DNA of 64,000 nucleotides, from contig NZ_JAUYUS010000068.1 in the NCBI RefSeq assembly GCF_030694575.1, positions 1,924 through 65,923 of the forward strand, in the 5' to 3' direction. The stretch comes from Parvibaculum sp. GTDB lineage: Bacteria; Pseudomonadota; Alphaproteobacteria; Parvibaculales; Parvibaculaceae. The stretch's first letter is position 1. Every line of letters starts with the position of its first letter. A program made the translations under genes and the position numbers. Shown in pieces: positions 35,962 through 52,174 of the stretch. Below the pieces are notes generated by a model, which worked only from the letters and a program-made list of their open reading frames with translations, did not search any database and was not told where the DNA came from.

Positions 35962-37025
35962 GAGAAGTATGCCTTCAGGCCCGGCAGAACCTCAGCGCCC
36001 ATCGTCTTCAATCCCTTGACGTAGTCCGGGAAAATCAGCATCACGCCATCGAGCTCGCAGCCTTCAATCTGCTCCTTGATCTTCTGCTGACAGGTGGCGG
36101 GTGTGCCGGCCACGGTGTGGGTCATGAAAGTTTCCTTGGCTTTCTCTCCCATCACGCTCGGGCTGCCGTCCACTTCCATGCCGTAGCTGCGCATCATTCC
36201 CTGCGCGGCGCCCCAGTCGAGACCTTCCTTGTAGTATGCGACCGTCTTCTCGGCCTCGGCGTCGGTTTCACCGAAAACGACGGTGCTCATCGCGAAGACC
36301 TTGATGGTGGTGTCGTGTTCGGTGGCAACGCGCCGCGCCATCCGGCTGATCCGCAGTGTATCTTCAGCCGTCTTGCCACCGATGAAGCAGGCATCGGTGT
36401 GCTGCACGGTGAAGCGCAAGCCCCTCTCCGACTGGCCGGCGCAGATCAGATAAGGGCGCGGACTGGAGACGGGCTTCGGCTGAGAAATGCAATCCTTGAA
36501 CTTGAAAAACTCACCGTCGTAGTCGACGTGATCCTTCTCCCACATCGTCTTGACGAGCGTCGTCCATTCCTCGGCGAAGCGATAGCGGCCATCGTGGTCG
36601 AGCGTTTCGGGCCAGGCGCCCATCTGGTCGAACTCGCTTTTGTAGGAGCCCGAGACGATGTTGAGGCCGGCGCGGCCGCCCGAAATCTGGTCGAGCGTCG
36701 CGATCATCTTGGCGACAACCGCAGGGTTCTGCAGCAGCGTATGAACGGTGGCGATGATGCGCGCATTCTTCGTCACCTCGGCGATGCCCGCCATCATGGT
36801 GACGGACTCGAGCGAAGTGCCCCAATGATCGGTGTCGCCGCCGAAGCCTCGCCACTTCATCATCGACATGATGAAATCGAGACCGATCTCGTCCGCCAGA
36901 ATGGCGATTTCGCGGTTCTGCCGGTAGGACGCATCGAGCGGGGGCGTGTTCTTCGAAATGATCCAGCCGCCATTGGCGATGGGAAGGAAGACACCGAACT
37001 GTTTCTTTGCCTCGGAGACGGACAT
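35958..37025 (-). CDS. LLM-class flavin-dependent monooxygenase, RutA-like
   Basis: FGVFLPIANGGWIIS, SMMKWRGFGG, LESVTMMAGIAEVT, EFDQMGAWP, ICAGQSERG parallel to pyrimidine monooxygenase RutA. Confidence 0.85.
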   Translation of the reverse strand: MSVSEAKKQFGVFLPIANGGWIISKNTPPLDASYRQNREIAILADEIGLDFIMSMMKWRGFGGDTDHWGTSLESVTMMAGIAEVTKNARIIATVHTLLQNPAVVAKMIATLDQISGGRAGLNIVSGSYKSEFDQMGAWPETLDHDGRYRFAEEWTTLVKTMWEKDHVDYDGEFFKFKDCISQPKPVSSPRPYLICAGQSERGLRFTVQHTDACFIGGKTAEDTLRISRMARRVATEHDTTIKVFAMSTVVFGETDAEAEKTVAYYKEGLDWGAAQGMMRSYGMEVDGSPSVMGEKAKETFMTHTVAGTPATCQQKIKEQIEGCELDGVMLIFPDYVKGLKTMGAEVLPGLKAYFS

Positions 37026-37085
37026 TTTCTTCTACTGACCTCTTGCTTGCCTTACTGAGCGGATCGCGGACCGATCGCTGATCTG

Positions 37086-38396
37086 TTAGTCGGCGACGTG
37101 ACCGAGGTCACCCGCCCGGGTGAGGATCGCCGCCGTCATGATTTCCTCTTCCTCGACCTCTTCCGCTTCCGCGCGGAGCGGCGGGCGCATGAACAGCACC
37201 GCGACCAGTACCGCTGCCGGCACCAGCGTGTAGAGAAAGAAGGCGTAGGAGAACGAGCCCGTGACGTCGCGCATGTAGCCGCCCAGGAAAGGACCAAAGG
37301 AAGCAAGCGTTGCTGCAACGTTCATGAAGGAGAACAGTTCGAGATAGGCACTGCGTCCATAGTAATTCATCAGCAGGACGCTCGTGGCGAGGAAGGTCAT
37401 GCCATAGCCAACGCCGATGCCGATGGCATAGACCATGAGAGCGAACCAGTTCGTACCAACGCCGAGCCCGACCATGCCCGCCACGAGAAGTGCAAGCGCC
37501 ACGATCAGCAGAATCTTTGGATCGACATATTCACCGATGAAGCCACTGACCGCTCGCGAGGCTGCATTGAGGAATGCCTCGAAGCTCAGAAGACCGCCAG
37601 CGACGCCCATGGCAATGCCGATCTCGGTCAGATGACCGACGGACAGACTGTTTACGGTGATCCCGCAAAGAAGGAACGCCACATAGCCAGCGGCAATAAT
37701 GTAAAATTGCGGCGTGCGAAGCGCCTGAAGAGCTGTCCAAGACTGCTTTGTAACATACACACCCGACGCGCTTTCAACCGCGGCCGCGGTGGCAACGTCG
37801 GCTGCGCGGCGATCCTCATCCTCGCCTTCGCGCAGGAAGGCGGCCGTGATCACGCCGGCAATCGCTGTGAGGACCGCGACGATCATCCAGTGCATCCTCC
37901 ATTCGTCCCAGACGCCGACGGCCAGGAAGTAGATCAACGGACCGACGATGCCGCCCACGCCGCCAATCGTGAAGTAGATGCCGAACGCCATCGACTGCTT
38001 CTTGAAGGAGCGAGCGATCATGAAAGTGCCGGGAACGGTGGCGACGAACGAGAAGCCCGTGCCCGCGAGCAACATGGCCGCAAAATAGGCCGGCACGCTC
38101 TGCACGAAATAGAGAAGGAGATAGCCGGCGACGAGAATGGCGGTGCCGAAGAGAATCGTCGCCCGCACGCCAAACCTGCGGATCATGAAAGCGGGGGGAT
38201 AGCTCGAAAGCCCGCAGGAAATACCGAGAATGGTGAAGCCGAGCCCGGCCGCCGTCCAGTCCCAACCCAGTTCGGAAACCATGTCGGGCAAGACGACACC
38301 GAGCGAGGTGAAGGTTCCCGCCGTGACGAGAAAGAACATGAAGCTGAAGGACAGCAGAACGAACCACGGATATATCGTCTCTTTCGCGTCGTTCAT
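37086..38396 (-). CDS. MFS transporter
   Basis: About 12 TM segments; MIRRFGVRATILFG; exact start uncertain (38396 or 38417). Confidence 0.88.
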   Translation of the reverse strand: MNDAKETIYPWFVLLSFSFMFFLVTAGTFTSLGVVLPDMVSELGWDWTAAGLGFTILGISCGLSSYPPAFMIRRFGVRATILFGTAILVAGYLLLYFVQSVPAYFAAMLLAGTGFSFVATVPGTFMIARSFKKQSMAFGIYFTIGGVGGIVGPLIYFLAVGVWDEWRMHWMIVAVLTAIAGVITAAFLREGEDEDRRAADVATAAAVESASGVYVTKQSWTALQALRTPQFYIIAAGYVAFLLCGITVNSLSVGHLTEIGIAMGVAGGLLSFEAFLNAASRAVSGFIGEYVDPKILLIVALALLVAGMVGLGVGTNWFALMVYAIGIGVGYGMTFLATSVLLMNYYGRSAYLELFSFMNVAATLASFGPFLGGYMRDVTGSFSYAFFLYTLVPAAVLVAVLFMRPPLRAEAEEVEEEEIMTAAILTRAGDLGHVAD

Positions 38397-38448
38397 CTGC
38401 TGGCCTCCAGACTTCATGCACTTCGGTTACTGATAGACGCTTCGGTAC

Positions 38449-40926
38449 TCAGAAGCGGTAGGTTGCCGTCACGCGCCACTCGCGGCCCTTGCCGGGCAGC
38501 ACAGCCACGTCGCCGTAGAGATCCTGGAGCGGCGTGAAGTATTCTTCGTCGAACACGTTGTCGATGTTGAGCGCCAGCCGCCATGTCTGGAAGTCCGCAT
38601 AGGCGGAGGCCTGGACGAGGAAGTAGTCGGGATACTTCACTGGATTGGACGCAAGACCGGCCGTCTCGGAAACGTAGCGCACGCCCCAGGTGGTGCCGGC
38701 ATGGCCCCAGTCGTAGGTATCGGTCGTATAGGTCGCGAAGAGGCTGAGAACCTTTTCGGGGATACGCCGATCTTCGATCTCGCCGGAGTAGTAGCTGTCG
38801 CCTGTGATGCCGGCGATTCCGCTGAAGGAATACCCGACAAGCGCGGCGCCGTAGTAATCGGCCGGGTCGTAGCCAAAGGTCGCCGGTGTGAAGTAGTAGA
38901 AGGCATCGTAGCTGCCGAGGAATTTCGTCTTCTGTACGTTGCCGGCAAAGGTGAAGCTGAGGTTGTCGGTCGCGAGATAGCGCAGCTCGAGTTCGACGCC
39001 CTCCCCTTCCGTTTCGTCTACGCCGCCGCCGACATTGTCGAGCACCGTGCGATGTTGACGATAGGCGGCGAGAGCACCGGTCAGCACACCGTTGAACGCT
39101 TCGAGTTTTATGCCCGCTTCGAGCAGATCACCTTCGGAAAGATATTCTCCCCTTCCGATGCTTTGGGGCGCTATGTCGCCGGCCTGGCCGAACTCAAGTG
39201 CCACGGTTTCGGCATAGGTCGCGTAGGGGCGGATTCCGAAGGGGCCGTTCACCATCAGCATCGCGCTGTAGGTAAAGGCTTCGTCCATATCGTGCTCACG
39301 ATCCGGAACGCAGTAGCAAAGAGAGCCGTTATCCACGGAATCCACCCAGTACATGTCGTACCGGCCGGTTGTCGTGAGGAAAACCAGGTTCTCGAAATCG
39401 AAATCGGCTATGCCGAAGAAGCCGAGATCGTTCCACTTGGAGTCCGTATTGTAGTCCCAGGTGTAGCCCGACCCGGGAATGAACGGCGATCCGAGCGTAT
39501 CGGTCGGCGTTGCCCCCTGAGAGAGGTCGCGGCGATCAAGCGCGATGCCACCATAGTTAAACGACTCCTTTTTGTTGGCGTCGTAATAGCGATTGCTCAT
39601 CCCGACATTGAACGCTGCCGTAACGGGCGCTTCCGAAGGGAGCTTGACGTCGAAATTGTAGCTGACGCGTCCCTCGACCGTGTAGGCGTTATAATCCGCA
39701 GGAAAGCCGTAGCTGACGAAGCGCTCGTTATCGAGCGAGTCGTAGAAGAGCTGGAATTTGAGTTCCGACCCGTTGCCGAAGGCTTTGATGAGGTCGCCAT
39801 ATATCGTCAGCGTCGACGACTCATTGAAATCGAGATCGCTGGTATAGACATTGCGCCGGCTGAGCTGCGTCGTCCCAACGCCGGTGTCCAACTGGCGATA
39901 GACAGGCAAGATATCGCACCCGCCAAAACATTGCGGAGCCCCGGTAAGTCCTCCGGGTGGCAACTCTCCTCTGTCGATGTAGCCATTGCCGTTGACGTCG
40001 ATGATGCCGGAATTGCTTCCGGTGATGTACGTACCGTTGTCGATCAGGTCTTGCGTGACGCGGTTCCAGCCCGGCGTCTGCAGGTAGCCTTCCGACTGGT
40101 AGTACATGACGCCGCCGCCATAGGTCCAACCGTCTAGCGTCTCGAATTGCGCGGTCGTCTGAAGGAGCTGATGCTGGGGCTCGATGCCGTGATAGAAACT
40201 TTCGGAATCCTCCAGCTCGCCATAGACGAAAACCCCGCCCGCGGTGTTACCGAAGTTGAGCGGAATGCCGGCCTCGAAGCTGCCATTCTTCTTGTCGTAA
40301 GAGCCGAGCGTGCCGGTCACCTGACCCGACATTTCGGTCATGTAACCTGCCTCTTCGCTGATCTTCGCGGTCTTCGGTTCGAGGTTGAGCAAACCGCCGA
40401 CCTTGCCCGGACCGAAATTCGCGGTCGGCGGGCCGCGCAGAATGTCGACGCGCGACGTCGCGCCGATCGGCGTCTGGTAGGTACCGCGATTTTCGATGCG
40501 CTTGAAGCCGTGGAAATAGGTTTCCGCCAGCAGGCCGCGTACATTGAGCGCGCCTTCCACACCATAGAAGGATGATGTGAAGGTGCCCGGCGAGACGGCG
40601 GCGAGATCGTCGACCGTCGTTACGCCGTAGGCGCTGAGCGTCTCGTCGCTCACGAAAGTTGCCGAACGCGGCGTTTTCAGCAGCGGCTTCTTCAGGCCGA
40701 AAAGCAGATCGCTTGGCTGCTGCTCCAGCAGACCCGCCTTGTCACGCTCGGAGATGACAAGCATCTCCCTCACCTTGGCGTCCCCGGCCGCGTCCGGTGT
40801 CGCTTCGACCACCGGAACCTCTTCAATCGCTTCCTGCGCCACTACGTTCACCGGAACGATGAACGCCGCGAGGATGACCCCCAGAGCCACTCGCGAGGCG
40901 GAATTCAAATAATGTGACTTGTTCAT
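38449..40926 (-). CDS. TonB-dependent receptor
   Basis: Signal peptide; LLKTPRSATFV plug start; RVDILRGP; NIDNVFDEEY..GREWRVTATYRF with terminal Phe. Confidence 0.93.
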   Translation of the reverse strand: MNKSHYLNSASRVALGVILAAFIVPVNVVAQEAIEEVPVVEATPDAAGDAKVREMLVISERDKAGLLEQQPSDLLFGLKKPLLKTPRSATFVSDETLSAYGVTTVDDLAAVSPGTFTSSFYGVEGALNVRGLLAETYFHGFKRIENRGTYQTPIGATSRVDILRGPPTANFGPGKVGGLLNLEPKTAKISEEAGYMTEMSGQVTGTLGSYDKKNGSFEAGIPLNFGNTAGGVFVYGELEDSESFYHGIEPQHQLLQTTAQFETLDGWTYGGGVMYYQSEGYLQTPGWNRVTQDLIDNGTYITGSNSGIIDVNGNGYIDRGELPPGGLTGAPQCFGGCDILPVYRQLDTGVGTTQLSRRNVYTSDLDFNESSTLTIYGDLIKAFGNGSELKFQLFYDSLDNERFVSYGFPADYNAYTVEGRVSYNFDVKLPSEAPVTAAFNVGMSNRYYDANKKESFNYGGIALDRRDLSQGATPTDTLGSPFIPGSGYTWDYNTDSKWNDLGFFGIADFDFENLVFLTTTGRYDMYWVDSVDNGSLCYCVPDREHDMDEAFTYSAMLMVNGPFGIRPYATYAETVALEFGQAGDIAPQSIGRGEYLSEGDLLEAGIKLEAFNGVLTGALAAYRQHRTVLDNVGGGVDETEGEGVELELRYLATDNLSFTFAGNVQKTKFLGSYDAFYYFTPATFGYDPADYYGAALVGYSFSGIAGITGDSYYSGEIEDRRIPEKVLSLFATYTTDTYDWGHAGTTWGVRYVSETAGLASNPVKYPDYFLVQASAYADFQTWRLALNIDNVFDEEYFTPLQDLYGDVAVLPGKGREWRVTATYRF

Positions 40927-40988
40927 GCTTGACGCCCCCAATCGCAGTACAAAGAAAGAGCTTGCTTCTTCGCAGATGCGATATCATT

Positions 40989-41004: not shown

Positions 41005-41500
41005 GATATTTAATCCTTTGTTTTCAAATGATTATTTCTGATTTTCTGTGCAGATGCAGTTGATGGGTGACAAAATATCATCCTGCAGCGCAGCAGATCA
41101 GCGAGACCCTGCACGAGATCGCGGCACGCTCCGCCCGGCCAAGCGATTTGATCAAGTATTCGTTCGTCCTTGCTACGCTTTGGCGCCGCTCCAGGGCAAT
41201 TCAACAGCACCCATCTCCCGCATCCCAGCTGCACATGCCACAGTTTCCGGCCGGCAGGGCTCCCCCACATCTGACGGAAACAAGGCCAAACGGGCCGGAA
41301 AACCGAGGCCGCCAGCCTCTTGCTCTCACCAATTGCCCCTTTCGAAGCAGGCAAGGTGAGATTGCCAATTTGTTGGTCAGCAAGGCGCGAGCGAACGAAG
41401 CGCCGGAAATCCTCTCAACTCATAGGGCGCACCGGGGCAAGACGCGCGCAGGAGAGAAGCCATAGCTTTGCCCGACAAAATACAAGAAGTGGCGTAACGA

Positions 41501-42355
41501 ATGACCATCGATCTGCAGCTCCGCACTCGCCCGCTCATGCCGGGCTTCGGCGTGGAAATCTTCGAAACCGACCTGAAGACCGCCGGTGCTGATGCACGAC
41601 AGCAGGTCGTCGATCGCTTCCATGAGAATGGTGCGATACTTTTGCGCAATCAGGACATGACGCCGGACGACCTTATGTCGTTCATTGATCTTTTCGGCGA
41701 TCCTGAAGATCATACGCAGACGCAGTTCACGCTGCCCGGATATCCTAAGATATTTATTCTGTCCAACCGCATCGTCGACGGTCGATCGATAGGGGCGCAC
41801 AATGACGGTGTAGGCTGGCACACCGACTATTCCTACAAGGAAGAGCCGGTCATGTGCACGATGCTCTACGCAGTCGAAGTTCCGCCGGAAGGTAGCGACA
41901 CGCTGCTTGCAGACCTCTGCGCTGCATATAACGAACTTCCCGATGAGCGAAAGGCGCAGCTCGACAAGCTGATCCTTCATCACAGCTATCAGCACCTCAT
42001 GTCGACCCGCCAGTTTGGCCGGATGGAACTCAGCGATGAGATGAAAGCCGCCAATCCGGACGTCTATCACCCGCTTGTCCGCTCCCATCCCGCCGACGGA
42101 CGGAAAGCGCTGTGGGTCAGCACCGGCACCGTTAAGGGTATTGTCGGTATGGACGACGACGCGGCGCTGGCGCTTCTCGATGAACTCGTGGAGTTTGTCA
42201 CCAACGAACGGTTTGTCTACCGGCACAAATGGCAAGTCGGCGATATTCTCATGTGGGACAATCGCTGCACGTTGCACACAGGCACTGTCTTCGACGATAC
42301 GAAGTACATACGGCTGATGCATCGTTTGTGGGTCAAGGGTGACAAACCCTTCTAG
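41501..42355 (+). CDS. TauD/TfdA family Fe(II)/2-oxoglutarate dioxygenase
   Basis: GWHTDYSY, GSDTLLAD, MWDNRCTLH. Confidence 0.93.
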   Translation: MTIDLQLRTRPLMPGFGVEIFETDLKTAGADARQQVVDRFHENGAILLRNQDMTPDDLMSFIDLFGDPEDHTQTQFTLPGYPKIFILSNRIVDGRSIGAHNDGVGWHTDYSYKEEPVMCTMLYAVEVPPEGSDTLLADLCAAYNELPDERKAQLDKLILHHSYQHLMSTRQFGRMELSDEMKAANPDVYHPLVRSHPADGRKALWVSTGTVKGIVGMDDDAALALLDELVEFVTNERFVYRHKWQVGDILMWDNRCTLHTGTVFDDTKYIRLMHRLWVKGDKPF

Positions 42356-42387
42356 CGCGTCGTTTAACGCAAGAAAGACGAGGCGGT

Positions 42388-43239
42388 ATGCCCGAGAGGA
42401 AGCCGAGAGTCTGGTGGATCACCGGCGTAAGCAGTGGTCTTGGCAAGGCAATAGCTACGGCAGCACTTGATTGTGGCGACATCGTCGCCGGCACTGTCCG
42501 CCGCCAGAGCGATCTCGACGATTTCGAGGCGCAAGCGCCGGATCGTGCGCTGGGCTATATCCTCGACGTCACCGACGACAAAGTGGTTCATGCAACGGCG
42601 GCGGTGATCGAACAACGAACCGGCGGCGTCGATGTTCTCGTCAACAATGCGGGATACGGGCTCATCGGCGCTATCGAAGAAGCCAGCCCGGTGGAAATCC
42701 GGGCCCAGTTCGACGTCAACGTCTTCGGCGCCCTCAGCGTTATTCAAGCTGTGTTGCCTTCCATGCGCCGCCGCCGGCGCGGACACGTCATCAACATCAC
42801 ATCGGTAAGCGGGCTCGCTCCCTGGATGGGAACCGGCATATACGGCGCAACAAAGTACGCGCTGGAATGCATCGGCCAAACGCTAGCGGAGGAAGTCCGC
42901 CCTCTCGGGATTAAAGTAACGAATGTGGCTCCGGGCGGTTTACGCACCGATTTTGCCACGCGTTCGCTCACGCTCTGCCAGGCGGAGATCGCGGACTACA
43001 AACCGACTGCACACCTTGCCCGCAACATATTGTCCGGGCACGGCGGCAGCGAGGCCGGGGATCCCGACAAGGCCGCGCTGGCCGTGCTCAAGATCGCTCT
43101 GACCGACGAGCCGCCGCTGCATCTCCTTCTCGGTGCCGACGCCCTGCACTATGTCGGCCGAAAACTCGGTGCCTTCCACGCGGAGATAGCCGACTGGGCA
43201 CCCACCACCCTTTCCATCGGCTTCAACGAAACCACGTGA
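42388..43239 (+). CDS. SDR family oxidoreductase
   Basis: WWITGVSSGLG, LVNNAGYGLIGAIEE, YGATKYALE. Confidence 0.92.
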   Translation: MPERKPRVWWITGVSSGLGKAIATAALDCGDIVAGTVRRQSDLDDFEAQAPDRALGYILDVTDDKVVHATAAVIEQRTGGVDVLVNNAGYGLIGAIEEASPVEIRAQFDVNVFGALSVIQAVLPSMRRRRRGHVINITSVSGLAPWMGTGIYGATKYALECIGQTLAEEVRPLGIKVTNVAPGGLRTDFATRSLTLCQAEIADYKPTAHLARNILSGHGGSEAGDPDKAALAVLKIALTDEPPLHLLLGADALHYVGRKLGAFHAEIADWAPTTLSIGFNETT

Positions 43240-43266
43240 AAAAGGCGGCTCCATGCCGCCCTTTTT
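43239..43266. terminator. Bidirectional intrinsic terminator
   Basis: AAAAAGGCGGC-TCCAT-GCCGCCCTTTTT between convergent genes. Confidence 0.7.
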
Positions 43267-43290
43267 CATCTCGGAAAGATCGTGGTCCCG

Positions 43291-44106
43291 TCAGATGGGA
43301 CGTCGCGTTTCCGCTACCGTCACACGGTAACCGGAACGCACCTGCGGGAAGTAATCCCACACAGCCAGATGCCAGGTGCAGCGATTGTCCCAGAACGCCA
43401 CGGATTTCGGCTTCCAGCGGAAGCGAACGTGAAAATTCGGATTGGCGCAATGCTTGTAGAGCATTTCCAGCACGCCATCGCTTTCCGCTTTGCCAAGCCC
43501 CACGATTTCAGTCGTATAGGATGGATTGACGAAAATGCCCTTGCGGCCGGTTACCGGATGCGTGCGCACCACAGGGTGCGTATTGCATGGAAAGCGCTTG
43601 TTCGGATCGTTGACGATCGGCCGATACACATGCTCGCCGTCATGCACCGCGTGCAGGCCCTCGAGATAAATCTTCATACCCGGCGAGAGGGCGTCGTACG
43701 CGGCATACATGCTCGCGAACATTGTGTCGCCGCCGACCTCCGGTACAACAGGCAGATAGAGAATGCTGCCCATCGGTGGTATTTCGTTGCAGGTCAGGTC
43801 GGAGTGCCAGTTTTCGCCGGCGACAAACTTTGAGTTTCCGTCGGCATGGATGGCAACGATTTCAGGGTGGTCCGCCAGGCCGGCGACGCCGCTGTGAATG
43901 GCAAGCTCGCCGAAAGCCCCGCCAAGTTCCTTGTGCCGCACGTGGTCCAGATCCTGGTCGCGGAAGAAGATCACCTGATGCTCCATCAGGGCCGTATGAA
44001 GTTCGTCAATGACCTTGTTCGTCAGCGGCTCGGCGAGATTTATGCCTTCGATTTCAGCGCCGATACGCATGGTCATCGGCTTTACCTTCAAAACTTCGTA
44101 TTCCAT
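43291..44106 (-). CDS. TauD/TfdA family Fe(II)/2-oxoglutarate dioxygenase
   Basis: HQVIFFRDQ, WHSDLT, GGDTMFAS, HPVVRTHPVTGRK, FWDNRCTWH. Confidence 0.93.
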   Translation of the reverse strand: MEYEVLKVKPMTMRIGAEIEGINLAEPLTNKVIDELHTALMEHQVIFFRDQDLDHVRHKELGGAFGELAIHSGVAGLADHPEIVAIHADGNSKFVAGENWHSDLTCNEIPPMGSILYLPVVPEVGGDTMFASMYAAYDALSPGMKIYLEGLHAVHDGEHVYRPIVNDPNKRFPCNTHPVVRTHPVTGRKGIFVNPSYTTEIVGLGKAESDGVLEMLYKHCANPNFHVRFRWKPKSVAFWDNRCTWHLAVWDYFPQVRSGYRVTVAETRRPI

Positions 44107-44179
44107 CGCCCTGATCCTGCGAAACGCTCACTGGAGCTCTTACCGAGGGCATGACGATCACGCCCTATCCCAAACGCTA

Positions 44180-44195
44180 AACAAAAGCCGTGCCA
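44180..44195 (-). promoter_or_regulatory. Sigma54-like promoter upstream of the second TauD gene
   Basis: Minus strand TGGCAC-GGCTT-TTGTT; the -12 element is imperfect. Confidence 0.4.
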
Positions 44196-44240
44196 AAGGC
44201 TTGTCTGTGTGCGCCCAAGCACTTGATCGCCGCTCATTCC

Positions 44241-44849
44241 CTACATGCCGAAGGGATAGGTTTTGAGATCGCAGGCGCCGCTGGCGCGAACAGCGCGAAG
44301 TGCTTTTGCATATTCGATCAGGATACCGATGCTGTGTTCGCAGCGGCCCTTGATCATGTTCTCCATCGCAACATCGGCAGCGGGCGCCCCGTTCAGCACG
44401 CCAGTAACGCCGCGAATGATGACATGATCCGGTATCCAGCAAATCCGGTTGTTCTTGAACCCTGTGGTTCGCAGCTCCACGATCGGATATGTCCCGCCCG
44501 CTGCTGCGGATATCGAGACGATGAGCCCGGGTTTGTTGGCCAGTTCCGTCGTGCATAGCAGCAGCATGTTCTTGAAGGCTGGCGGCACCATACCGTGCCA
44601 TTCGGGAACGACCGCGACAAAACCATCGCATGAAGATAGCTCTTCCGAAATCGGCTTCCATGCATCCTTCAGCGGCGAGGGATCGGCGGAAAAGGCTGTT
44701 TCATCCCAGAAAGGCAACGGCGCAGTACCCATGTCGATCGGATCGCAAACGACCACATCGCGCGCCTTCAGCCGTGCCAACAGATAGGCCGCGACCTTGG
44801 CCGATTGCGCATTCGGTCGCTGGCTACCGGCAATCACGCTGATCTTCAT
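44241..44849 (-). CDS. NADPH-dependent FMN reductase (flavodoxin-like)
   Basis: ISVIAGSQRPNAQS, VVPEWHGMVPPAFKN, LANKPGLIVS. Confidence 0.9.
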   Translation of the reverse strand: MKISVIAGSQRPNAQSAKVAAYLLARLKARDVVVCDPIDMGTAPLPFWDETAFSADPSPLKDAWKPISEELSSCDGFVAVVPEWHGMVPPAFKNMLLLCTTELANKPGLIVSISAAAGGTYPIVELRTTGFKNNRICWIPDHVIIRGVTGVLNGAPAADVAMENMIKGRCEHSIGILIEYAKALRAVRASGACDLKTYPFGM

Positions 44850-45170
44850 GAGTCTCGCCTTCCTGTTCGACTGACATGTCCAGCACCCGCCGGACCGGCA
44901 CTGAGGCTAGGCTCAGGAGGTCCCGGGTTCTTGCCTCTTTGCGTTCGATTGCTTTTCCCACGTAGATACAAGTTCCTGCCAATGCCACTTTTGCAGGCGG
45001 TCCGTCGCCGGTTTTCTAGGCAATGCGGTCACCGACGCGAGGCCTGAACAACAGTTTGGTCGCTCAATCACAAGAGCTCTCGTCTCTGTCGGCCTAATAT
45101 CGATGCTGGAAACAGAGGCCCAAATTTTGCGTCGCTCCCTTTCGGGAGGCAGATGATTGAGCGGAGTGCG

Positions 45171-46358
45171 TCAATGTCCGGTACGATTCTCACCGATGAT
45201 TTTTTTAACGCGTTCGAGAGCTCTCTCGGAGACGTCACGGAAGCAGAAACGTTGCCGCCGCACTGTTACACCAGCGAAGAATTTTTCAAGTTCGAAAAGG
45301 AAGCGTTGTTCAGCCGCGAATGGCTCTGCGTCGGGCGCGAAGACTGGGTGAAAAATCCCGGCGACTATTTTACCGCCTCGCATGTCGGCGAACCGCTCAT
45401 CATCTCGCGTACACGCGACGGCGAACTCAAGGCGCTCTCGGCCGTCTGCCAGCACCGGGCAATGCTCGTTGCAGAAGGTCGCGGCAACACCAAGGCTTTC
45501 GTCTGTCCGTATCACCACTGGACCTACGGACTCGACGGCAGGCTGGTTGGCGCACCGGCCATGAGCAAGACCTGCGGCTTCGACCGCAACGATGTCGGCC
45601 TGCCTGAGCTCAAGACCGAGATATGGGAAGGTTTTGTTTTCGTCAATTTCGACAATGACGCGCTGCCGCTCGCTCCACGACTCAAAACCGTGAGTGACGC
45701 ACTCGCACACTACGACCTTCCCAATGCGGAAGGTGCGGTTCCGGATGAGCCACAGAGCTATCCGTGGAACTGGAAGGTAATGATGGAGAACAACAACGAC
45801 GGCTATCATGCCACCCGGTTGCACAAGGGCCCGTTGCACGATTTCATTCCAAGCGAACTTGCGATTTTCCCGGAGATGCCTGAGGGGAGCGCCGGCTATC
45901 TTCGCTTCAACGGCACGTTGCACCCCGACGCGGCTTTCAATCCGCTGCAGAGGGCCGTCCTGCCGGTCTTTCCGAAGTTGACGGCCGAGGAACGTCATCG
46001 CGCCGTGTTCGCCAACATCCCGCCGACACTATCGCTGGTCATCACCTCCGACATGGTGATTTACCTCATACTCCACGCTGAATCGGCCGGTCGGCATTCC
46101 ATGACGATTGGCTGGCTGGTTGCTCCCGGCGCCATGTCCGAACCGCTTTTTCAGGAACGTCTCGACATGAACATGCGGACGGCGATGGAAATTACCGAGC
46201 AGGATCTTCATGTCGACAAGCTCGTCCAGATCGGGCTCAAATCGCGTTTCGCGGTGCGTGGGCGCTACTCTTGGCAAGAGCGCGCGCAGAGCGACCTCAA
46301 TCACTGGCTCGTTACGCGCTACCGGGATACGTGGCAACGCATGAAATCGGCATCGTAA
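45171..46358 (+). CDS. Rieske non-heme iron oxygenase alpha subunit (choline monooxygenase/GbcA/CntA-like branch)
   Basis: CQH..CPYHHWTY Rieske motif; NWKVMMENNNDGYHATRLH mononuclear Fe site; start 45153 or 45171. Confidence 0.92.
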   Translation, partial: SMSGTILTDDFFNAFESSLGDVTEAETLPPHCYTSEEFFKFEKEALFSREWLCVGREDWVKNPGDYFTASHVGEPLIISRTRDGELKALSAVCQHRAMLVAEGRGNTKAFVCPYHHWTYGLDGRLVGAPAMSKTCGFDRNDVGLPELKTEIWEGFVFVNFDNDALPLAPRLKTVSDALAHYDLPNAEGAVPDEPQSYPWNWKVMMENNNDGYHATRLHKGPLHDFIPSELAIFPEMPEGSAGYLRFNGTLHPDAAFNPLQRAVLPVFPKLTAEERHRAVFANIPPTLSLVITSDMVIYLILHAESAGRHSMTIGWLVAPGAMSEPLFQERLDMNMRTAMEITEQDLHVDKLVQIGLKSRFAVRGRYSWQERAQSDLNHWLVTRYRDTWQRMKSAS

Positions 46359-46386
46359 CGACGAAATCATCGAGGCAGGACCACCG

Positions 46387-47178
46387 ATGCGAAACGGAAA
46401 CGGCAGGCGCCAGCCTGCGATATTTTTCGGGCATGGCAGTCCCGGCAATGTGATGGAAGACAACTTCGTCACGCAGTGCTGGGAGAATCTCGGCCGCGAG
46501 ATTGGCAAGCCCAAAGGTATTATCTGCGTTTCCGCCCACTGGTATACACGTGGCATTCGGGTCACCGCCGCGCCAAATCCCGGCACAATCCATGATTTCG
46601 GCGGCTTTCCGAAGGCCATGTACGACCTTCGTTATCCCGCTCCCGGCAGTCCGGGGCTTGCCGGGGAGATTGCGCGCCGGCTTGCACCTGTCGATGTTCT
46701 TCTGGACGACGAAAGAGGCTTCGATCACGGCTCCTGGTGCGTGCTTGCCAAAGTCTACCCGCAGGCCGATGTCCCGATGGTTCAGATAAGCATGGATGCG
46801 ACCATGCTGCCGCACCAGCATTTCGCGCTCGGGACGACGCTGGGGCAGTTTCGCGACGAAGGCTGCCTGCTTATGGGCAGCGGAAACATCGTCCACAACC
46901 TGCCGGAGATGGACTGGCGGATGCGGGATGGCAGCTATAATTGGGCGGGCCGGTTTGGCGACTACATTCGCGAGAGCATCGTCGCAGATCGGCCAGACAG
47001 GTTGATCGACTATGCGTCGCAGGGACGCGACGCCTCGCTTTCCGTGCCGCATCCCGATCACTACCTGCCGCTGCTTTATGTGGTTGGCGCCCGGCGCGCG
47101 GACGATCCCGTCCGCTTCGAGACGCCGATGGTGGAATACGGCTCTCTCGACATGACAACCGTGGTCATCGGCGCCTGA
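46387..47178 (+). CDS. ygiD: 4,5-DOPA extradiol dioxygenase family (YgiD/LigB-like)
   Basis: FFGHGSP, SAHWYT, FDHGSW, GSGNIVHNL, PHPDHYLPL. Confidence 0.9.
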   Translation: MRNGNGRRQPAIFFGHGSPGNVMEDNFVTQCWENLGREIGKPKGIICVSAHWYTRGIRVTAAPNPGTIHDFGGFPKAMYDLRYPAPGSPGLAGEIARRLAPVDVLLDDERGFDHGSWCVLAKVYPQADVPMVQISMDATMLPHQHFALGTTLGQFRDEGCLLMGSGNIVHNLPEMDWRMRDGSYNWAGRFGDYIRESIVADRPDRLIDYASQGRDASLSVPHPDHYLPLLYVVGARRADDPVRFETPMVEYGSLDMTTVVIGA

Positions 47179-47399: not shown

Positions 47400-48479
47400 A
47401 TGGCGCATGCAGTAATCCCGGGATCGAAGGCCACAGCGCACGCACATCCCACCGCCCTCCACCTCCTCAGAGCAACGCCGGAGACCTGTCACTGGGGGTA
47501 TTTCGATCCGGCGCTGGCGCCGGTACTCACAGTGAAGAGTGGCGACCTCGTTCAAGTCGAGGCGGTTACCCATCATGCCGGCGATGCACCCGATATCATG
47601 ATGGATGACGCTGTCCGGCACATCTACAACACGATCCCCGAAGCCGATCGCAATCCCGGCGTCCATTTGATGACAGGGCCGATCTATGTCGAGGGCGCAA
47701 AGCCCGGCGATATGCTGGAGGTGCGTTATCTGCGGATGACGCCGCGCTTCGACTACGGGTCCAACCTCGCCGCAAACTGGGGGCATCTCCACAAGGAGTT
47801 TGACGAGAAGGAACGCGTGACCATCTACCGGCTCGATCGGGCGACCCATCAAGCCGAGGCCTTCTATGCCTATGATTATCCCGGCAAGTACGAAACACCG
47901 GGCAAGATCACCAACTGCCCCGAATGCGACCGGCAGACAGCTTTGAACGGCGTCCGTGTTCCCGTCAGGCCGCATCTCGGTACGGCGGGGGTTGCACCGG
48001 ATGTGGAGGGTCGCGTCAGCACCATTCCGCCGGGGGCACATGGCGGCAACATCGACAACTGGCGCATCGGCGCCGGTGCGACGATGTTCTATCCGGTGGC
48101 GGTGGACGGCGCGCTCTTTTCTGTTGGCGACCCGCATATCTCGCAAGGCGACGGCGAGATCAGCGGCACGGCAATCGAAGCCTCGCTCGATGTGCTTTTC
48201 CAAATCGTTTTGCGCAAGGACTTCGAGTTCCCTTCGCCGCTTCTCGAAACGCCCAAATACTGGATCGTTCACGGCTTCGATGAAGACCTCGACAATGCCA
48301 TGCGCAATGCCTCTCTGGACATGCTGAAGTTCCTTCACGAAGAACGTAATCTCAGCAAGAACGACGCCTATTCGCTCATGAGCGTTTCAGCGGACTTCAC
48401 GGTCACACAAGTCGTCGATGGGCGTCAGGGCGTGCATGTCCGCATGCCGCGCAGCATCTTCCCGACCGAAAAGAAATAG
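47400..48479 (+). CDS. Acetamidase/formamidase (FmdA/AmdA) family protein
   Basis: HWGYFD, HLMTGPIYVEGAKPGD, HGGNIDNW, GDPHISQGDGEISGTAIE; AGGAG RBS. Confidence 0.92.
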   Translation: MAHAVIPGSKATAHAHPTALHLLRATPETCHWGYFDPALAPVLTVKSGDLVQVEAVTHHAGDAPDIMMDDAVRHIYNTIPEADRNPGVHLMTGPIYVEGAKPGDMLEVRYLRMTPRFDYGSNLAANWGHLHKEFDEKERVTIYRLDRATHQAEAFYAYDYPGKYETPGKITNCPECDRQTALNGVRVPVRPHLGTAGVAPDVEGRVSTIPPGAHGGNIDNWRIGAGATMFYPVAVDGALFSVGDPHISQGDGEISGTAIEASLDVLFQIVLRKDFEFPSPLLETPKYWIVHGFDEDLDNAMRNASLDMLKFLHEERNLSKNDAYSLMSVSADFTVTQVVDGRQGVHVRMPRSIFPTEKK

Positions 48480-48492
48480 GGGCCCCTGCGGT

Positions 48493-48508
48493 GGGCACAC
48501 TTCTTGCG
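48493..48508 (+). promoter_or_regulatory. Sigma54-like promoter upstream of the AraC-amidase fusion
   Basis: GGGCAC-ACTTC-TTGCG (GG-N10-GC). Confidence 0.5.
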
Positions 48509-48596
48509 ACGTCGTAATCGGCGACGCAGCCGACGGCGCAAACCCCTGATTTCCGGAGCGTGAAAAAAGCGGAACCGTTTGAGCTGCACAAATTTA

Positions 48597-48639
48597 CGGC
48601 ACCGGGAGGTCTGTTTTTGCGGCAGACCTTCGGGTGCCG
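48597..48639 (+). other. Long stem-loop in the leader of the fusion gene
   Basis: CGGCACCGGGAGGTCTG-N9-CAGACCTTCGGGTGCCG, 17-bp stem with one mismatch and one G-U pair. Confidence 0.6.
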
Positions 48640-48662
48640 GGTAACGAGTTGTGTGCGATCGA

Positions 48663-51065
48663 ATGGATGCCTGGCGATTTTCAACCGAATCCTATCCCAA
48701 GGCCAACCGCTACGAGGCGTGGCAGGAAGCCCTTGAGCGCCTGGCATTGAAGCCAACGGGCCATGCAACCGATGACGGCGCCTATGGAATGCTGTCCGCT
48801 GTCGTTTCGCAATCCGGCATCAGCTTCACGCGCCTCATATCGACCCCGCAAGATATCAGCGCCATTCACGAGCTCAACAAGGAAGCAGGCAAAGACGGCA
48901 TCTGGCTCACATCTCTGCTCGAAGGTCATCTGACTTTTCACGATGGCGGCAACGACATCAAGGCAACGGCCGGCGATATTGTATATGGCGCTGTCGGTTC
49001 ACACACCACGCTGACGCTTGAAACCAATTGCCGCGTCATCATCGTTTATATCCCACGCTTTGCATTCCAGCCTCGTCTCATGACGCCACTGCCGACCAAG
49101 GTCATCCACCTGTCGGGCCGCGCCGGCATCGGGCATGTGCTGGCCGGCTTTCTGTCCTCGGTCGCCGAAGCGCTCGAGGACCTCAGCATCGACCAGTTGA
49201 GGCCCATCGAGATGGCGTTGCCGGAATTTCTGATGGCGGGCATTTTCCGTCAGGCAGACACGCGGGCGCTGGGCGGCGCAGCGGGTGTTCGCGCGGCGCT
49301 TCTGCATCGGGTTTGCCAGACCATCGAGGCGCAACTTGGCGATCCGGATCTTTCGCTCGCGAACATCGCCGAAGCCCACGGTATCTCTCCACGCTATGTG
49401 CAAAAACTTTTTGAGTCCGTCGGCCAGAGCTTTATCCGTTACATCCGCTACAGACGCCTTGAGCGCTGCCGCTATGATCTGGAAAGCCCGATACATGGCC
49501 AGCTGTCCATTTCCGACATCTGCTTTCGTTGGGGCTTCAACGATGCCGCGCATTTCAGTCGCGCGTTCCGCGACCAATATGGCGTCTCGCCCCGGGAATA
49601 CCGCCGGGCGGCACCGTCCAACGCGCAACAGAGTCATCCATGGATCACCAATCGCGGACGGCCGGACGACCGCCTCGGCGCACCGCGCGACGACCGTTCG
49701 ATTTCCTGGTCCGACTTGCCGGCGGATGAGGCGCCGTTGCCCGAAGACGGGGATCTGGCAGTCGTCACACCCGCACTTCCCTCGGAAACGCTGCCAATTT
49801 CGGTGCCGCTGTCCGAAGATGGCGCGCGCCATCACTATCTGCCGGTCACCGCCAATACCGTGCATTGGGGCTATTTCAGCCGTTTCCTTCCGCCTGTGCT
49901 TGAGATGAACTCGGGCGACTTTGTCACCATCGAAACGCTCACGCAGCACGCCTATGACGATTACGAGCGCATGATCGAGAACGATCCGGGTGCCGAAAGC
50001 GTTTTCCACTGGACCAAGGACGGCAAGAATGTCGATCGGCGAGGCGCCGGTCCGATGGATGCGTCCACCTATGGTCGCGGACCGGGCGAGGGCTTTGGCG
50101 TGCATATCTGCACCGGGCCCATCTCCATTCACGATGCGAAGCCCGGCGACATCGTCGAACTGCGGATCCTCGACATTCATCCGCGCCCCAGTGCCAGCGC
50201 GCGCTTCGAGGGGCGGCATTTCGGCAGCAACGCAGCCGCATGGTGGGGCTACCACTACAACGAACTGCTCACGCCACCAGCACCGCGCGAGGTCATCACG
50301 ATCTACGAGATCGAGAAGCGACACGGCAACGATGTCGCACGCGCGGTCTACAACTATCGCTGGACGCCACAGACAGATCCGTTCGGTGTGGTGCATGAGC
50401 TGATCGACTACCCGGGCGTACCGGTCGATCACACGACGATCGAGAAAAACTTCGACGTGCTGAAGAGCGTCGAGATTCCGTTGCGGGCTCATTTCGGGGT
50501 GGTCGCTCTGGCCCCCGACCACTGGGGCATTGTGGACTCGGTGCCTCCAGCCTATTTCGGCGGCAACATCGACAATTGGCGCCTGGGCGCGGGCTCCTGC
50601 ATCTTCCTGCCTGTCTCTGTCCCCGGCGGCTTGCTGTCGGTCGGCGATCCGCACGCGTCACAAGGCGACTCGGAGCTTTGCGGCACAGCGATCGAATGCT
50701 CTCTCACCGGCATTTTCCAGGTCATCCTGCACAAGAAACGGGAACTGCCCGGCAAGCTCATCGATCTCGACTACCCGCTGATCGAGACGCCGGACGAATG
50801 GGTCATCACCGGCTTTTCCCATCCGAACTATCTGAAGGAACTCGGCAAGAACGCCCAGACCGAAGTCTACAAGCAGGCATCCGTCGATATGGCAATGCGC
50901 GACGCGTTCCGGAAAACGCGCCGCTTTCTCATGACGTCCAAAGGCCTGTCGGAGGATGAGGCCATCTCCCTCATGTCCGTTGGTGTCGATTTTGGCATCA
51001 CGCAGGTGGTGGATGGAAACTGGGGCGTGCACGCCGTCATTCGTAAAGCCATGTTTCTCGATTGA
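48663..51065 (+). CDS. AraC-family regulator fused to a C-terminal acetamidase/formamidase domain
   Basis: N-terminal WRFST..YEAWQEAL FeaR-like domain; HTH GISPRYVQKLF..SISDICFRWGFNDAAHFSRAFRDQYGVSPREYR; then VHWGYFS..GGNIDNW..GDPHASQGDSELCGTAIE in one frame. Confidence 0.9.
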   Translation: MDAWRFSTESYPKANRYEAWQEALERLALKPTGHATDDGAYGMLSAVVSQSGISFTRLISTPQDISAIHELNKEAGKDGIWLTSLLEGHLTFHDGGNDIKATAGDIVYGAVGSHTTLTLETNCRVIIVYIPRFAFQPRLMTPLPTKVIHLSGRAGIGHVLAGFLSSVAEALEDLSIDQLRPIEMALPEFLMAGIFRQADTRALGGAAGVRAALLHRVCQTIEAQLGDPDLSLANIAEAHGISPRYVQKLFESVGQSFIRYIRYRRLERCRYDLESPIHGQLSISDICFRWGFNDAAHFSRAFRDQYGVSPREYRRAAPSNAQQSHPWITNRGRPDDRLGAPRDDRSISWSDLPADEAPLPEDGDLAVVTPALPSETLPISVPLSEDGARHHYLPVTANTVHWGYFSRFLPPVLEMNSGDFVTIETLTQHAYDDYERMIENDPGAESVFHWTKDGKNVDRRGAGPMDASTYGRGPGEGFGVHICTGPISIHDAKPGDIVELRILDIHPRPSASARFEGRHFGSNAAAWWGYHYNELLTPPAPREVITIYEIEKRHGNDVARAVYNYRWTPQTDPFGVVHELIDYPGVPVDHTTIEKNFDVLKSVEIPLRAHFGVVALAPDHWGIVDSVPPAYFGGNIDNWRLGAGSCIFLPVSVPGGLLSVGDPHASQGDSELCGTAIECSLTGIFQVILHKKRELPGKLIDLDYPLIETPDEWVITGFSHPNYLKELGKNAQTEVYKQASVDMAMRDAFRKTRRFLMTSKGLSEDEAISLMSVGVDFGITQVVDGNWGVHAVIRKAMFLD

Positions 51066-51957: not shown

Positions 51958-52174
51958 ATCCCCACTCCCGACCAGATGCACTCTTCCGATCCTAGACCGG
52001 CACCGGCAGCGCTTCGACGACAAACCCGCTCAATAAGTTGGATCTGTACATCGGAATGCAGCCCTGTGCTCACTCCATCCGGGCAAGCCAAGTTTCCGTG
52101 CGTGCAGGCACCAGAACCGGACGAGCGGATCGCCCAATATGAAACCATCCGCTTCCTGTAGCCAAAGGTTCGCA

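What the first reader, a model, noticed from the sequence alone, without database searches (positions are those of the whole stretch)
48663..51065. AraC regulator fused to an apparently intact amidase: candidate trigger enzyme
An ~800-aa single ORF joins a FeaR-like AraC (ligand domain plus double HTH), a low-complexity Pro/Asp-rich linker and a full FmdA/AmdA domain. That domain retains GGNID and GDPHxxQGDxE, the same presumptive metal-binding residues as the stand-alone paralogue immediately upstream. The protein may sense an amide through its catalytic domain and control the Rieske/extradiol/amidase genes. I know of no functional characterisation of this architecture.
Basis: partly seen in the sequence, partly recalled or inferred. 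Interest (0 to 1): 0.75.

Follow-up and report, generated by a model that had tools for sequence, protein, structure and literature searches.

The report
AraC regulator fused to amidase domain
This gene really does encode one 800-residue protein joining a complete AraC-type gene switch to an intact-looking amidase; the untested fusion family probably switches on the neighbouring breakdown genes, which carry a DNA site found nowhere else in the genome.

Summary
ORF 48663-51065 (+) encodes 800 aa: a complete FeaR-like AraC regulator (1-318), a disordered linker of about 65 aa, and a 3b9t-type FmdA/AmdA amidase fold of about 410 aa. It is not an artefact: four independent metagenome assemblies carry it without indels, and more than 100 full-length homologues (54-88% identity) exist in Alpha-, Beta- and Gammaproteobacteria.

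New findings here:
- Fusion C-domains form one clade, sister to free cytoplasmic and Tat-exported enzymes, with a short stem branch.
- The amidase module is the most conserved part (71% mean identity; DNA-binding domain 64%). It keeps every family core motif, but some polar sites beside the motifs vary (e.g. H428Q here).
- A direct-repeat operator, CAAC-N8-CGC-N7-CAAGA, occurs exactly three times in the 3.8-Mb genome, all in this cluster. A fourth relaxed copy is also there. The element recurs before cluster genes in Sphingomonas and Alteromonas.

Best reading: a class II AraC activator of a conserved catabolic island for an amide or N-heterocycle, using the amidase module as sensor and possibly hydrolysing its inducer. 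Catalysis, ligand and DNA binding are untested. It is a new variant of a known kind. Earlier notes of this scan report it in other genomes.

The parts
48663..51065 (+). AraC::FmdA/AmdA fusion gene (800 aa plus stop)
   Evidence: ORF. Domains. Full-length homologues. Indel-free in independent assemblies.
48663..49262 (+). N-terminal AraC_binding_2 / FeaR-like cupin domain (residues 1-200)
   Evidence: Pfam PF14525 is weak here (20.8 bits) but is flagged in most homologues. The FeaR profile is covered end to end. The model has pLDDT about 90 and resembles CuxR, PDB 5nla. Mean family identity is 38%.
49275..49616 (+). Double helix-turn-helix DNA-binding domain (residues 205-318)
   Evidence: HTH_18 at 1.2e-22 and HTH_AraC at 7e-17. 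PDB matches to MarA, Rob, SoxS and AraC DNA-binding domains. Mean family identity is 64%.
49653..49664 (+). Invariant R-G-R-P (residues 331-334), an AT-hook-like motif just after the HTH
   Evidence: R331, G332 and P334 are invariant in 62 aligned fusions and are the only conserved feature of the linker. The AT-hook reading comes from my own knowledge of the RGRP core motif and was not tested.
49617..49829 (+). Flexible linker (residues 319-389)
   Evidence: pLDDT is about 30 over residues 319-383. Mean identity is 18% and length ranges from 40 to 115 aa in the family.
49830..51062 (+). 3b9t-type FmdA/AmdA amidase module (residues 390-800)
   Evidence: 621 bits to PDB 3b9t. The model superposes on 3b9t at TM 0.93. 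Mean family identity is 71%. 134 of 412 columns are invariant across the fused, cytoplasmic and Tat-exported forms.
50559..50675 (+). Core motifs GGNID (residues 633-637) and GDPHASQGDSE (661-671), candidate metal and catalytic residues
   Evidence: Shared with all six solved family members and kept in 106 of 106 fusions. The family is described as related to a bi-zinc formamidase in PMC4602302.
47266..47292 (+). Operator copy upstream of the free FmdA gene (CAACATCTTCTGCGCTCCAAAGCAAGA)
   Evidence: Conserved in the genus, Sphingomonas and Alteromonas. A -10-like GACACT lies 19 nt downstream.
45049..45075 (+). Operator copy upstream of the Rieske-LigB genes (CAACAGTTTGGTCGCTCAATCACAAGA)
   Evidence: A -10-like TAATAT lies 19 nt downstream and is conserved in the genus alignment.
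44199..44225 (-). Relaxed operator copy upstream of TauD1 (CAAGTGCTTGGGCGCACACAGACAAGC)
   Evidence: Orthologous CAAGC-type copies lie upstream of TauD in L014, L015, L017 and L018.
41416..41442 (+). Operator copy upstream of the second TauD gene and SDR (CAACTCATAGGGCGCACCGGGGCAAGA)
   Evidence: Found independently by the loose pattern. It is one of only three strict matches in the genome and is conserved in L014-L018.
47400..48479 (+). Free-standing FmdA/AmdA paralogue (359 aa), 45-47% identical to the fusion's C-domain
   Evidence: Pfam 3.3e-36. Adjacent to the fusion in every same-genus genome with an intact fusion, and present in the same cluster in Sphingomonas and Alteromonas.
45153..47178 (+). 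Rieske oxygenase alpha subunit (45153-46358) and YgiD/DODA-type LigB extradiol dioxygenase (46387-47178)
   Evidence: Pfam. LigB scores over the NCBIfam 4,5-DOPA-dioxygenase cut-off, 310 against 233 bits. Syntenic.
41501..44849 (.). TauD2 (41501-42355 +), SDR (42388-43239 +), TauD1 (43291-44106 -) and FMN reductase (44241-44849 -)
   Evidence: Pfam. Synteny.
33930..40941 (-). Accessory block: M20-like hydrolase, BiuH/RutB-like isochorismatase, RutA-like monooxygenase, MFS transporter, TonB-dependent receptor
   Evidence: The same gene order occurs next to the fusion in Alteromonas. No operator copy was found before this block.

Best explanation
The gene encodes a one-component transcription factor. 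A FeaR-like AraC module (cupin-type N-domain plus two HTH motifs) is tethered by a flexible linker of about 65 residues to a complete 3b9t-type FmdA/AmdA metallo-amidase fold.

I propose that it acts as a class II activator. It would bind a direct repeat (CAA-nn, 17 further bases, CAAGA; 22-bp period) that overlaps the -35 region of four promoters in this island: tauD2-sdr, tauD1, rieske-ligB and fmdA. This would switch on catabolism of an amide-bearing aromatic or N-heterocyclic compound. The amidase module would be the ligand-sensing input and would bind the amide at its intact metal site. I put the chance that it also hydrolyses the amide at about even.

Shown: the architecture, its conservation and single origin, the intact core motifs, and the genome-unique operator with its conservation across three lineages.

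Inferred: that this protein binds the operator, that it activates, that the C-domain rather than the N-domain senses, and the chemical class of the ligand.
For: - Real and conserved. More than 120 full-length homologues share the same Pfam architecture. Intact frames are present in 8 of 24 same-genus genomes. Independent assemblies are indel-free.
- Single origin. All 106 fusion C-domains form one clade (support 0.88), sister to the free enzymes (0.96). The stem is 0.08, against 1.59 to the adjacent paralogue. The one 'free' member inside the clade is a frameshifted fusion.
- Constraint. The C-domain has 71% mean identity, against 64% for the HTH, 38% for the N-domain and 18% for the linker. 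All core motifs are kept in 106 of 106 fusions. 127 of the 174 sites fixed in free enzymes are also fixed in fusions. The model superposes on 3b9t at TM 0.93.
- Regulon. CAAC-N8-CGC-N7-CAAGA occurs three times in 3.8 Mb, with zero matches for the control. All three copies are in this island and co-oriented with the downstream genes. A fourth, relaxed copy lies before tauD1. The same element precedes cluster genes in Sphingomonas (LigB, FmdA, glyoxalase, Rieske, TonB receptor, TauD) and Alteromonas (FMN reductase, Rieske, FmdA). The fusion is the only regulator shared by all three clusters.
- Mode of action. A -10-like hexamer lies 19-20 nt after each repeat and no sigma-70 consensus promoter is detected. 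This fits class II activation.
Against: - No experiment exists for any member.
- The N-terminal AraC_binding_2 domain is the effector domain in relatives and is retained, so it may be the real sensor.
- The linker is long, disordered and unconserved. That argues against rigid allosteric coupling.
- Polar sites fixed in free enzymes vary in fusions: H428Q (Gln in this protein), E620H, Y631, H716 and D784N. I could not place them on coordinates, so loss or change of activity is possible.
- The free-enzyme sample is less diverse than the fusion sample, which inflates the apparent relaxation.
- The strict operator pattern was refined after the sites had been seen. Sphingomonas has a second AraC gene in its cluster.
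- The substrate of the island is not identified.
Confidence: 0.5

Rival explanations
1. Bifunctional protein without cross-talk. The N-terminal AraC_binding_2 domain senses the effector as in FeaR-type regulators. The C-terminal amidase is simply a tethered, active pathway enzyme that became fused to the regulator.
For: The N-domain is complete and confidently modelled. Free AraC relatives of the N-half work without any amidase. The linker is flexible and unconserved. The catalytic motifs are intact and enzyme-like constraint is high.
Against: Regulators are usually made in small amounts, which suits a metabolic enzyme poorly (general knowledge). The island already encodes a free amidase. The fusion has persisted as one clade across three proteobacterial classes with no natural split seen. 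That persistence suggests the physical link itself is under selection.
Confidence: 0.2
2. Pseudoenzyme sensor. The amidase fold binds the amide or a pathway intermediate but no longer turns it over. The free FmdA paralogue does the catalysis.
For: 21 sites fixed in free enzymes are relaxed in fusions, including His, Asp and Glu positions beside the core motifs. His428 is Gln in 30 of 106 fusions, including this one, against 1 of 88 sequences classed as free, and that one is a frameshifted fusion. There is precedent for enzyme-derived, inactive sensor domains in AraC regulators, such as the GATase1-like domains of GbdR and CdhR (my own knowledge).
Against: Every motif shared with the solved enzymes is invariant. 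There is no long stem branch after the fusion event. The C-domain is the most conserved module. Pseudoenzymes usually lose catalytic residues.
Confidence: 0.2
3. Oligomerisation scaffold. The amidase fold mainly provides dimer or tetramer contacts that position AraC modules on the repeats, with no ligand role.
For: The solved family members all have four or more chains in their entries. Four operator sites lie within 6 kb, so looping is conceivable.
Against: This does not explain the invariance of the metal and catalytic motifs over the whole family. AraC_binding_2 domains are generally held to mediate dimerisation already (my own knowledge).
Confidence: 0.07
4. Assembly or annotation artefact: two adjacent genes joined by a sequencing error in the linker.
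For: None found. One homologue (P0165) does show the opposite error, a fusion broken into two calls.
Against: Four independent assemblies are identical with no indels. More than 120 full-length homologues have linkers of varying length, all in frame.
Confidence: 0.01

Closest known systems
FeaR and other AraC_binding_2-type AraC/XylS activators (CuxR, PDB 5nla, is the nearest solved structure)
   Same: The N-terminal 318 residues cover the FeaR profile end to end. They have the double HTH and a CuxR-like fold. The predicted operator is a direct repeat overlapping -35, as for class II AraC/XylS activators (the mode of action is from general knowledge).
   Different: The score is below the FeaR equivalog cut-off (120 against 199 bits). 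The protein carries an extra module of about 480 residues after the DNA-binding domain. Free relatives end at about 315-345 aa.
PDB 3b9t, a predicted acetamidase/formamidase from Methylobacillus flagellatus, and its free cytoplasmic (about 430 aa) and Tat-exported (about 480 aa) relatives
   Same: 62-73% identity over about 420 residues, TM 0.93, and all core motifs shared.
   Different: Those are stand-alone enzymes, and their biochemical function is itself uncharacterised. The fusions form a separate sister clade. They carry a fusion-specific Leu649 (Tyr in the free enzymes) and have relaxed polar sites.
Trigger enzymes with a built-in DNA-binding domain (PutA, BirA, NadR)
   Same: One polypeptide combines an enzyme fold with a DNA-binding domain and sits among genes of a related pathway. 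PMC9132996 describes PutA sensing its substrate (listed; otherwise my own knowledge).
   Different: Those proteins are experimentally proven and use other DNA-binding folds and other enzyme families. Here neither catalysis nor ligand control has been tested.
Ada of E. coli (AraC-type HTH followed by a C-terminal methyltransferase domain)
   Same: An AraC-type HTH is followed by a C-terminal domain of enzymatic origin (my own knowledge; earlier notes of this scan also named it).
   Different: Ada is activated by self-methylation of its N-domain. It has no cupin N-domain and no hydrolase. There is no sequence relationship outside the HTH.
AraC regulators with a GATase1/DJ-1-like sensor domain (GbdR, CdhR, ArgR of Pseudomonas)
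   Same: An amide-hydrolase-derived fold serves as the ligand sensor of an AraC regulator (my own knowledge). GbdR and FtrA appear among the weak HTH hits.
   Different: There the enzyme-like domain replaces the N-terminal domain and is believed to be inactive. Here the normal N-domain is kept and the enzyme fold is appended C-terminally with its motifs intact.

Membership tests
AraC/XylS family transcription regulators | C-terminal region of about 100 residues with two helix-turn-helix motifs (Pfam HTH_18 / HTH_AraC over the gathering score) | tested here: met
   HTH_18 scores 80.4 bits (cut-off 33.6) and HTH_AraC 61.5 bits (cut-off 26.6) at residues 235-315. PDB matches to MarA, Rob, SoxS and AraC DNA-binding domains.
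FeaR (NCBIfam NF007243 equivalog) | Whole-protein score at or above the curated cut-off of 199 bits | tested here: not met
   120.4 bits, although profile positions 8-301 of 303 are covered. It is FeaR-like, not FeaR.
AraC_binding_2 N-terminal domain (PF14525) | Pfam gathering score of 27 bits | tested here: inconclusive
   20.8 bits for this protein. Most homologues are flagged PF14525, and the modelled fold matches the CuxR N-half.
FmdA_AmdA acetamidase/formamidase family (PF03069) | Pfam gathering score, the family fold, and the shared motifs P-x-x-x-H-x-G...AP, GGN-x-D and GD-x-H-x-x-x-GD-x-E | tested here: met
   90.9 bits (cut-off 27). TM 0.93 to 3b9t and 0.75-0.88 to 2f4l, 5ubu, 2ii1 and 3tkk. 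The motifs align to all six solved members.
FmdA_AmdA acetamidase/formamidase family (PF03069) | Metal-dependent amide hydrolysis | not testable with these tools
   Only sequence and fold evidence is available. No member of the 3b9t subfamily has a published assay in the library searched.
Formamidase FmdA (NCBIfam NF045496 equivalog) | Whole-protein score at or above 500 bits | tested here: not met
   52.3 bits for the fusion and 77 bits for the adjacent paralogue. Neither should be called a formamidase.
Trigger enzyme (an enzyme that also controls gene expression according to substrate availability) | An enzyme fold and a DNA-binding domain in one polypeptide | tested here: met
Trigger enzyme (an enzyme that also controls gene expression according to substrate availability) | Demonstrated catalytic activity, and regulation that depends on substrate or turnover | not testable with these tools
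   Requires enzyme assays, DNA-binding assays with ligands, and reporter assays.

The most novel reading that the evidence does not exclude
The protein is a true trigger enzyme of a new type: an AraC activator whose own C-terminal metallo-amidase hydrolyses the inducing amide. Occupancy or turnover at the active site would gate DNA binding, and the regulator would consume its own inducer, giving a self-limiting response. The invariant RGRP after the HTH would add a minor-groove contact that the amidase domain masks or releases.
Probability: 0.25. Interest if true: 0.75.

Novelty: new variant of a known kind. Interest (0 to 1): 0.52.

Why it matters
AraC-family regulators are among the commonest bacterial switches, yet the effector is known for few of them. 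One-component regulators that use a complete, apparently active enzyme as their input are rare (PutA, BirA, NadR).

This family offers a clean test case:
- a compact clade with a solved structure for its closest free relative;
- a small, sharply defined predicted regulon (four promoters and a genome-unique operator);
- a conserved catabolic island of about 18 kb, found in groundwater, hydrocarbon, sludge, soil and marine bacteria, whose substrate is unknown.

Identifying the ligand would name the pathway. It would also show whether catalysis and regulation are coupled, and could give an amide-responsive biosensor part.

Tried and rejected
- **Riboflavin/lumichrome catabolism as the island's function.** The reconstituted pathway uses a P450, a xanthine-oxidase-type enzyme, a thiamin-dependent enzyme and an alpha-beta Rieske dioxygenase (PMC12746152). 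None of these is present here. Rejected.
- **3-hydroxy-4-pyridone (pydA/pydB) pathway.** PydA's conserved DDHFENH and EWICGM motifs (PMC3637104) are absent from this LigB protein, which is instead a YgiD/DODA-type equivalog. Not supported. A dihydroxypyridine-type route, in which ring cleavage gives an N-formyl amide that is then hydrolysed, remains only an analogy from my own knowledge.
- **L-amino acid amides as the ligand.** One cytoplasmic sister enzyme ends an SBP_bac_5 ABC-transporter operon. This resembles the operons of bioRxiv 10.1101/2024.02.22.581678, but the ANTAR and cytoplasmic-PBP genes of those operons are not seen, and the amidases were not assayed. A lead only.
- **A conserved RNA hairpin in the fusion's 5' leader.** RNAalifold found no shared structure.
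- **Sigma-54 boxes at the Rieske and FmdA promoters.** The spacing is off by one base in each, so I read those elements as AraC half-sites instead.
- **A first strict operator pattern with the wrong spacing** gave zero hits. I corrected it.
- **Natural split versions of the fusion.** P0165 is a frameshifted fusion. P0268 and P0286 are free AraC regulators that are not next to an amidase.
- **Literature.** Searches for the architecture found nothing specific.
Full report
**Observation.** A single open frame runs from 48651/48663 to 51065 on the + strand. The ATG at 48663 gives an 800-residue protein identical to a database cluster seen on three contigs. Pfam finds HTH_18 and HTH_AraC at residues 235-315, a weak AraC_binding_2 match at 84-175, and FmdA_AmdA at 480-784. 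The NCBIfam FeaR profile is covered from position 8 to 301 of 303, but below its cut-off. The description is therefore correct.

Two details need adjusting. First, the amidase module is about 410-425 residues, not 305: residues 374-798 align to PDB 3b9t at 621 bits. Second, it is only 45-47% identical to the adjacent free amidase, so it is not a recent copy of its neighbour.

**Is it real?** Four metagenome assemblies from three unrelated studies (hydrocarbon, groundwater, activated sludge) contain 48400-51200 with no insertion or deletion and at most one substitution. Eight of 24 genomes of the same genus have an intact full-length frame, with the free paralogue about 200 bp upstream. The best 120 database hits are all 762-893 aa with the same Pfam architecture, at 54-88% identity. 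Where a source names them, they come from Parvibaculum, Rhizobiales, Sphingomonas, Asticcacaulis, Altericroceibacterium, Alteromonas, Paraglaciecola, Aliiglaciecola, Nevskia and Burkholderiales. At 50% clustering the full-length form collapses to about five clusters, so this is a compact family. It is sparse: about 1-2 of 400 evenly drawn species of the class carry it. That pattern fits a mobile catabolic island.

**Anatomy.** An AlphaFold2 model built from 62 homologues (mean pLDDT 81, pTM 0.55) shows two confident bodies, residues 1-318 and 390-800. They are joined by a segment with pLDDT about 30 at residues 319-383. The C-body superposes on 3b9t at TM 0.93 and on other FmdA/AmdA structures at 0.75-0.88. 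The N-body resembles CuxR, Rns and ToxT.

Mean pairwise identity by module across the family:

| Module | Mean identity |
|---|---|
| N-domain | 38% |
| HTH | 64% |
| Linker (length 40-115 aa) | 18% |
| C-domain | 71% |

The enzyme fold is therefore the most constrained part of the protein. The only conserved feature of the linker is an invariant R-G-R-P at residues 331-334. This is the core of the AT-hook motif (my own knowledge, untested).

**History of the amidase module.** The 3b9t subfamily exists in three architectures: cytoplasmic (about 420-434 aa), Tat-exported (about 470-490 aa, with RRxFLK) and AraC-fused. In a maximum-likelihood tree all 106 fusion C-domains form one clade (support 0.88), sister to the free enzymes (0.96). 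The stem is 0.08 substitutions per site, against 1.59 to the adjacent paralogue. The single 'free' sequence inside the fusion clade overlaps an upstream AraC-HTH gene call, so it is a broken fusion. The closest free relatives of the N-half are ordinary AraC regulators of 315-345 aa that are not next to an amidase. One of them sits beside a TauD gene. So the fusion arose once, did not diverge rapidly afterwards, and is not normally split.

**Is the amidase intact?** The motifs shared by all six solved family members are present and are kept in 106 of 106 fusions. 134 of 412 columns are invariant in all three architectures. A review describes the family as related to a bi-zinc formamidase (PMC4602302), and the invariant His, Asp and Glu residues of these motifs are plausible ligands.

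Against a fully unchanged enzyme, 21 of the 174 sites fixed in free enzymes fall below 85% in fusions. These include H428Q (Gln in this protein and in 30 of 106 fusions), E620H, Y631, H716 and D784N. Leu649 is fusion-specific. The fusion sample is more diverse than the free sample, so part of this difference is a sampling effect. I could not place these sites on coordinates. My reading is that the catalytic core is retained while the periphery of the pocket is tuned. Whether the domain turns over substrate remains open.

**Context and regulon.** The gene order in the window is: TonB receptor, MFS transporter, RutA-like monooxygenase, BiuH/RutB-like isochorismatase and an M20-like hydrolase (all on the - strand); then TauD2 and SDR (+); TauD1 and FMN reductase (-); Rieske, LigB, FmdA and the fusion (+); and PfkB (-). 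Nearly the same gene set surrounds the fusion in Alteromonas, and a shuffled version surrounds it in Sphingomonas abietis. Within the genus the order is fixed.

Aligning the intergenic regions showed a shared element before the Rieske and FmdA genes. A loose form of it (CAA-N19-CAAGA) then found a third copy at 41416-41442, before a TauD gene I had not yet recognised. The refined pattern CAAC-N8-CGC-N7-CAAGA has exactly three matches in the 3.8-Mb genome and none for the reversed control. All three are in this island and on the strand of the downstream gene. A relaxed pattern gives six hits in the window against 0.6 expected and adds a copy before TauD1.

The element recurs before cluster genes in the other genus members. 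In Sphingomonas it precedes LigB, FmdA, the glyoxalase gene, Rieske, the TonB receptor and TauD. In Alteromonas it precedes FMN reductase, Rieske and FmdA. Each copy is followed 19-20 nt later by a -10-like hexamer, so the proximal CAAGA overlaps the -35 position. No sigma-70 consensus promoter is present. This is the layout of class II AraC/XylS activators. The fusion is the only regulator common to all three clusters, so it is the best candidate for binding the element. That assignment is an inference. The strict pattern was also refined after the sites had been seen.

**The regulator's own promoter.** No operator copy precedes the fusion gene. Instead, GGCAC(A/G)CTTCTTGC at 48494-48507 fits the sigma-54 -24/-12 spacing exactly. 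It is conserved in all seven genus loci, and the genome encodes sigma-54. No terminator follows the free FmdA gene, so read-through from the FmdA promoter is also possible.

**What the island degrades.** This is not resolved. The enzyme set suggests an amide-bearing aromatic or N-heterocyclic compound, possibly a riboside, used as a nitrogen source. It comprises a Rieske oxygenase, a YgiD-type extradiol dioxygenase, two TauD enzymes, a RutA-like monooxygenase with an FMN reductase, a BiuH/RutB-like amidohydrolase, an FmdA-type amidase, a PfkB kinase and, in Sphingomonas, a nucleoside hydrolase. The riboflavin and 3-hydroxy-4-pyridone pathways were checked and do not fit.

**Verdict.** The fusion is real and ancient, and it is very probably the activator of the island. 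Sensing through the amidase domain is the best-supported mechanism, but it is untested and competes with sensing through the N-domain. No functional study was found. The architecture is already annotated in databases, and earlier notes of this scan met the same family in other genomes. I rate it a new variant of a known kind, with moderate interest.

Noticed in passing
window 48494-48507 (+): GGCACACTTCTTGC, 156-169 bp upstream of the fusion's ATG, fits the sigma-54 -24/-12 consensus with exact spacing. It is conserved in all 7 same-genus loci, and the genome encodes RpoN. The regulator gene may be sigma-54-dependent, for example under nitrogen control.
   Followed up: partly
window 48583-48602 (+): A second conserved block, GCTGCACAAATTTACGGCAC, lies in the fusion's leader. 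It is an imperfect palindrome around an AT-rich centre, is present in all 7 genus loci, and has no assigned function.
   Followed up: no
window 49653-49664 (residues 331-334): An invariant R-G-R-P directly after the AraC HTH is the only conserved feature of the linker. It matches the AT-hook core motif and may be an extra minor-groove DNA contact.
   Followed up: partly
window 41501-42355 (+): A second TauD-family dioxygenase gene (Pfam 4.9e-63) is masked in a six-frame listing by a longer spurious ORF on the minus strand (41420-42322), which has no family match.
   Followed up: yes
window 33930-40941 (-): A Rut-like module (RutA-like luciferase-type monooxygenase, BiuH/RutB-like isochorismatase, M20-like hydrolase) sits with an MFS transporter and a TonB-dependent receptor, in the same order as beside the fusion in Alteromonas (L012). 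No operator copy was found before it, so it may be controlled differently.
   Followed up: partly
L021 (contig carrying P0164): A cytoplasmic free sister enzyme of the fusion's C-domain ends an SBP_bac_5 ABC-transporter operon next to hydantoinase A/B genes. The layout resembles the operons shown to import L-amino acid amides (bioRxiv 10.1101/2024.02.22.581678).
   Followed up: partly
L024 and L025 (contigs carrying P0286): A free-standing AraC regulator 45% identical to the fusion's N-half lies directly upstream of a TauD gene and an SBP_bac_5 gene, next to hydantoinase genes. The regulator lineage may have been linked to TauD genes before the fusion arose.
   Followed up: no
window 52139-54043 (+): A PhoD-type phosphatase with a Tat signal lies just beyond the island. 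It appears unrelated.
   Followed up: no
G066:C2:498212-501834: In another genome of the class, the C-domain match lies in an 868-aa open frame. About 1.1 kb upstream is a second 3b9t-type gene (55% identity, 518-aa frame). There the fusion is paired with a same-subfamily enzyme rather than a distant paralogue.
   Followed up: no
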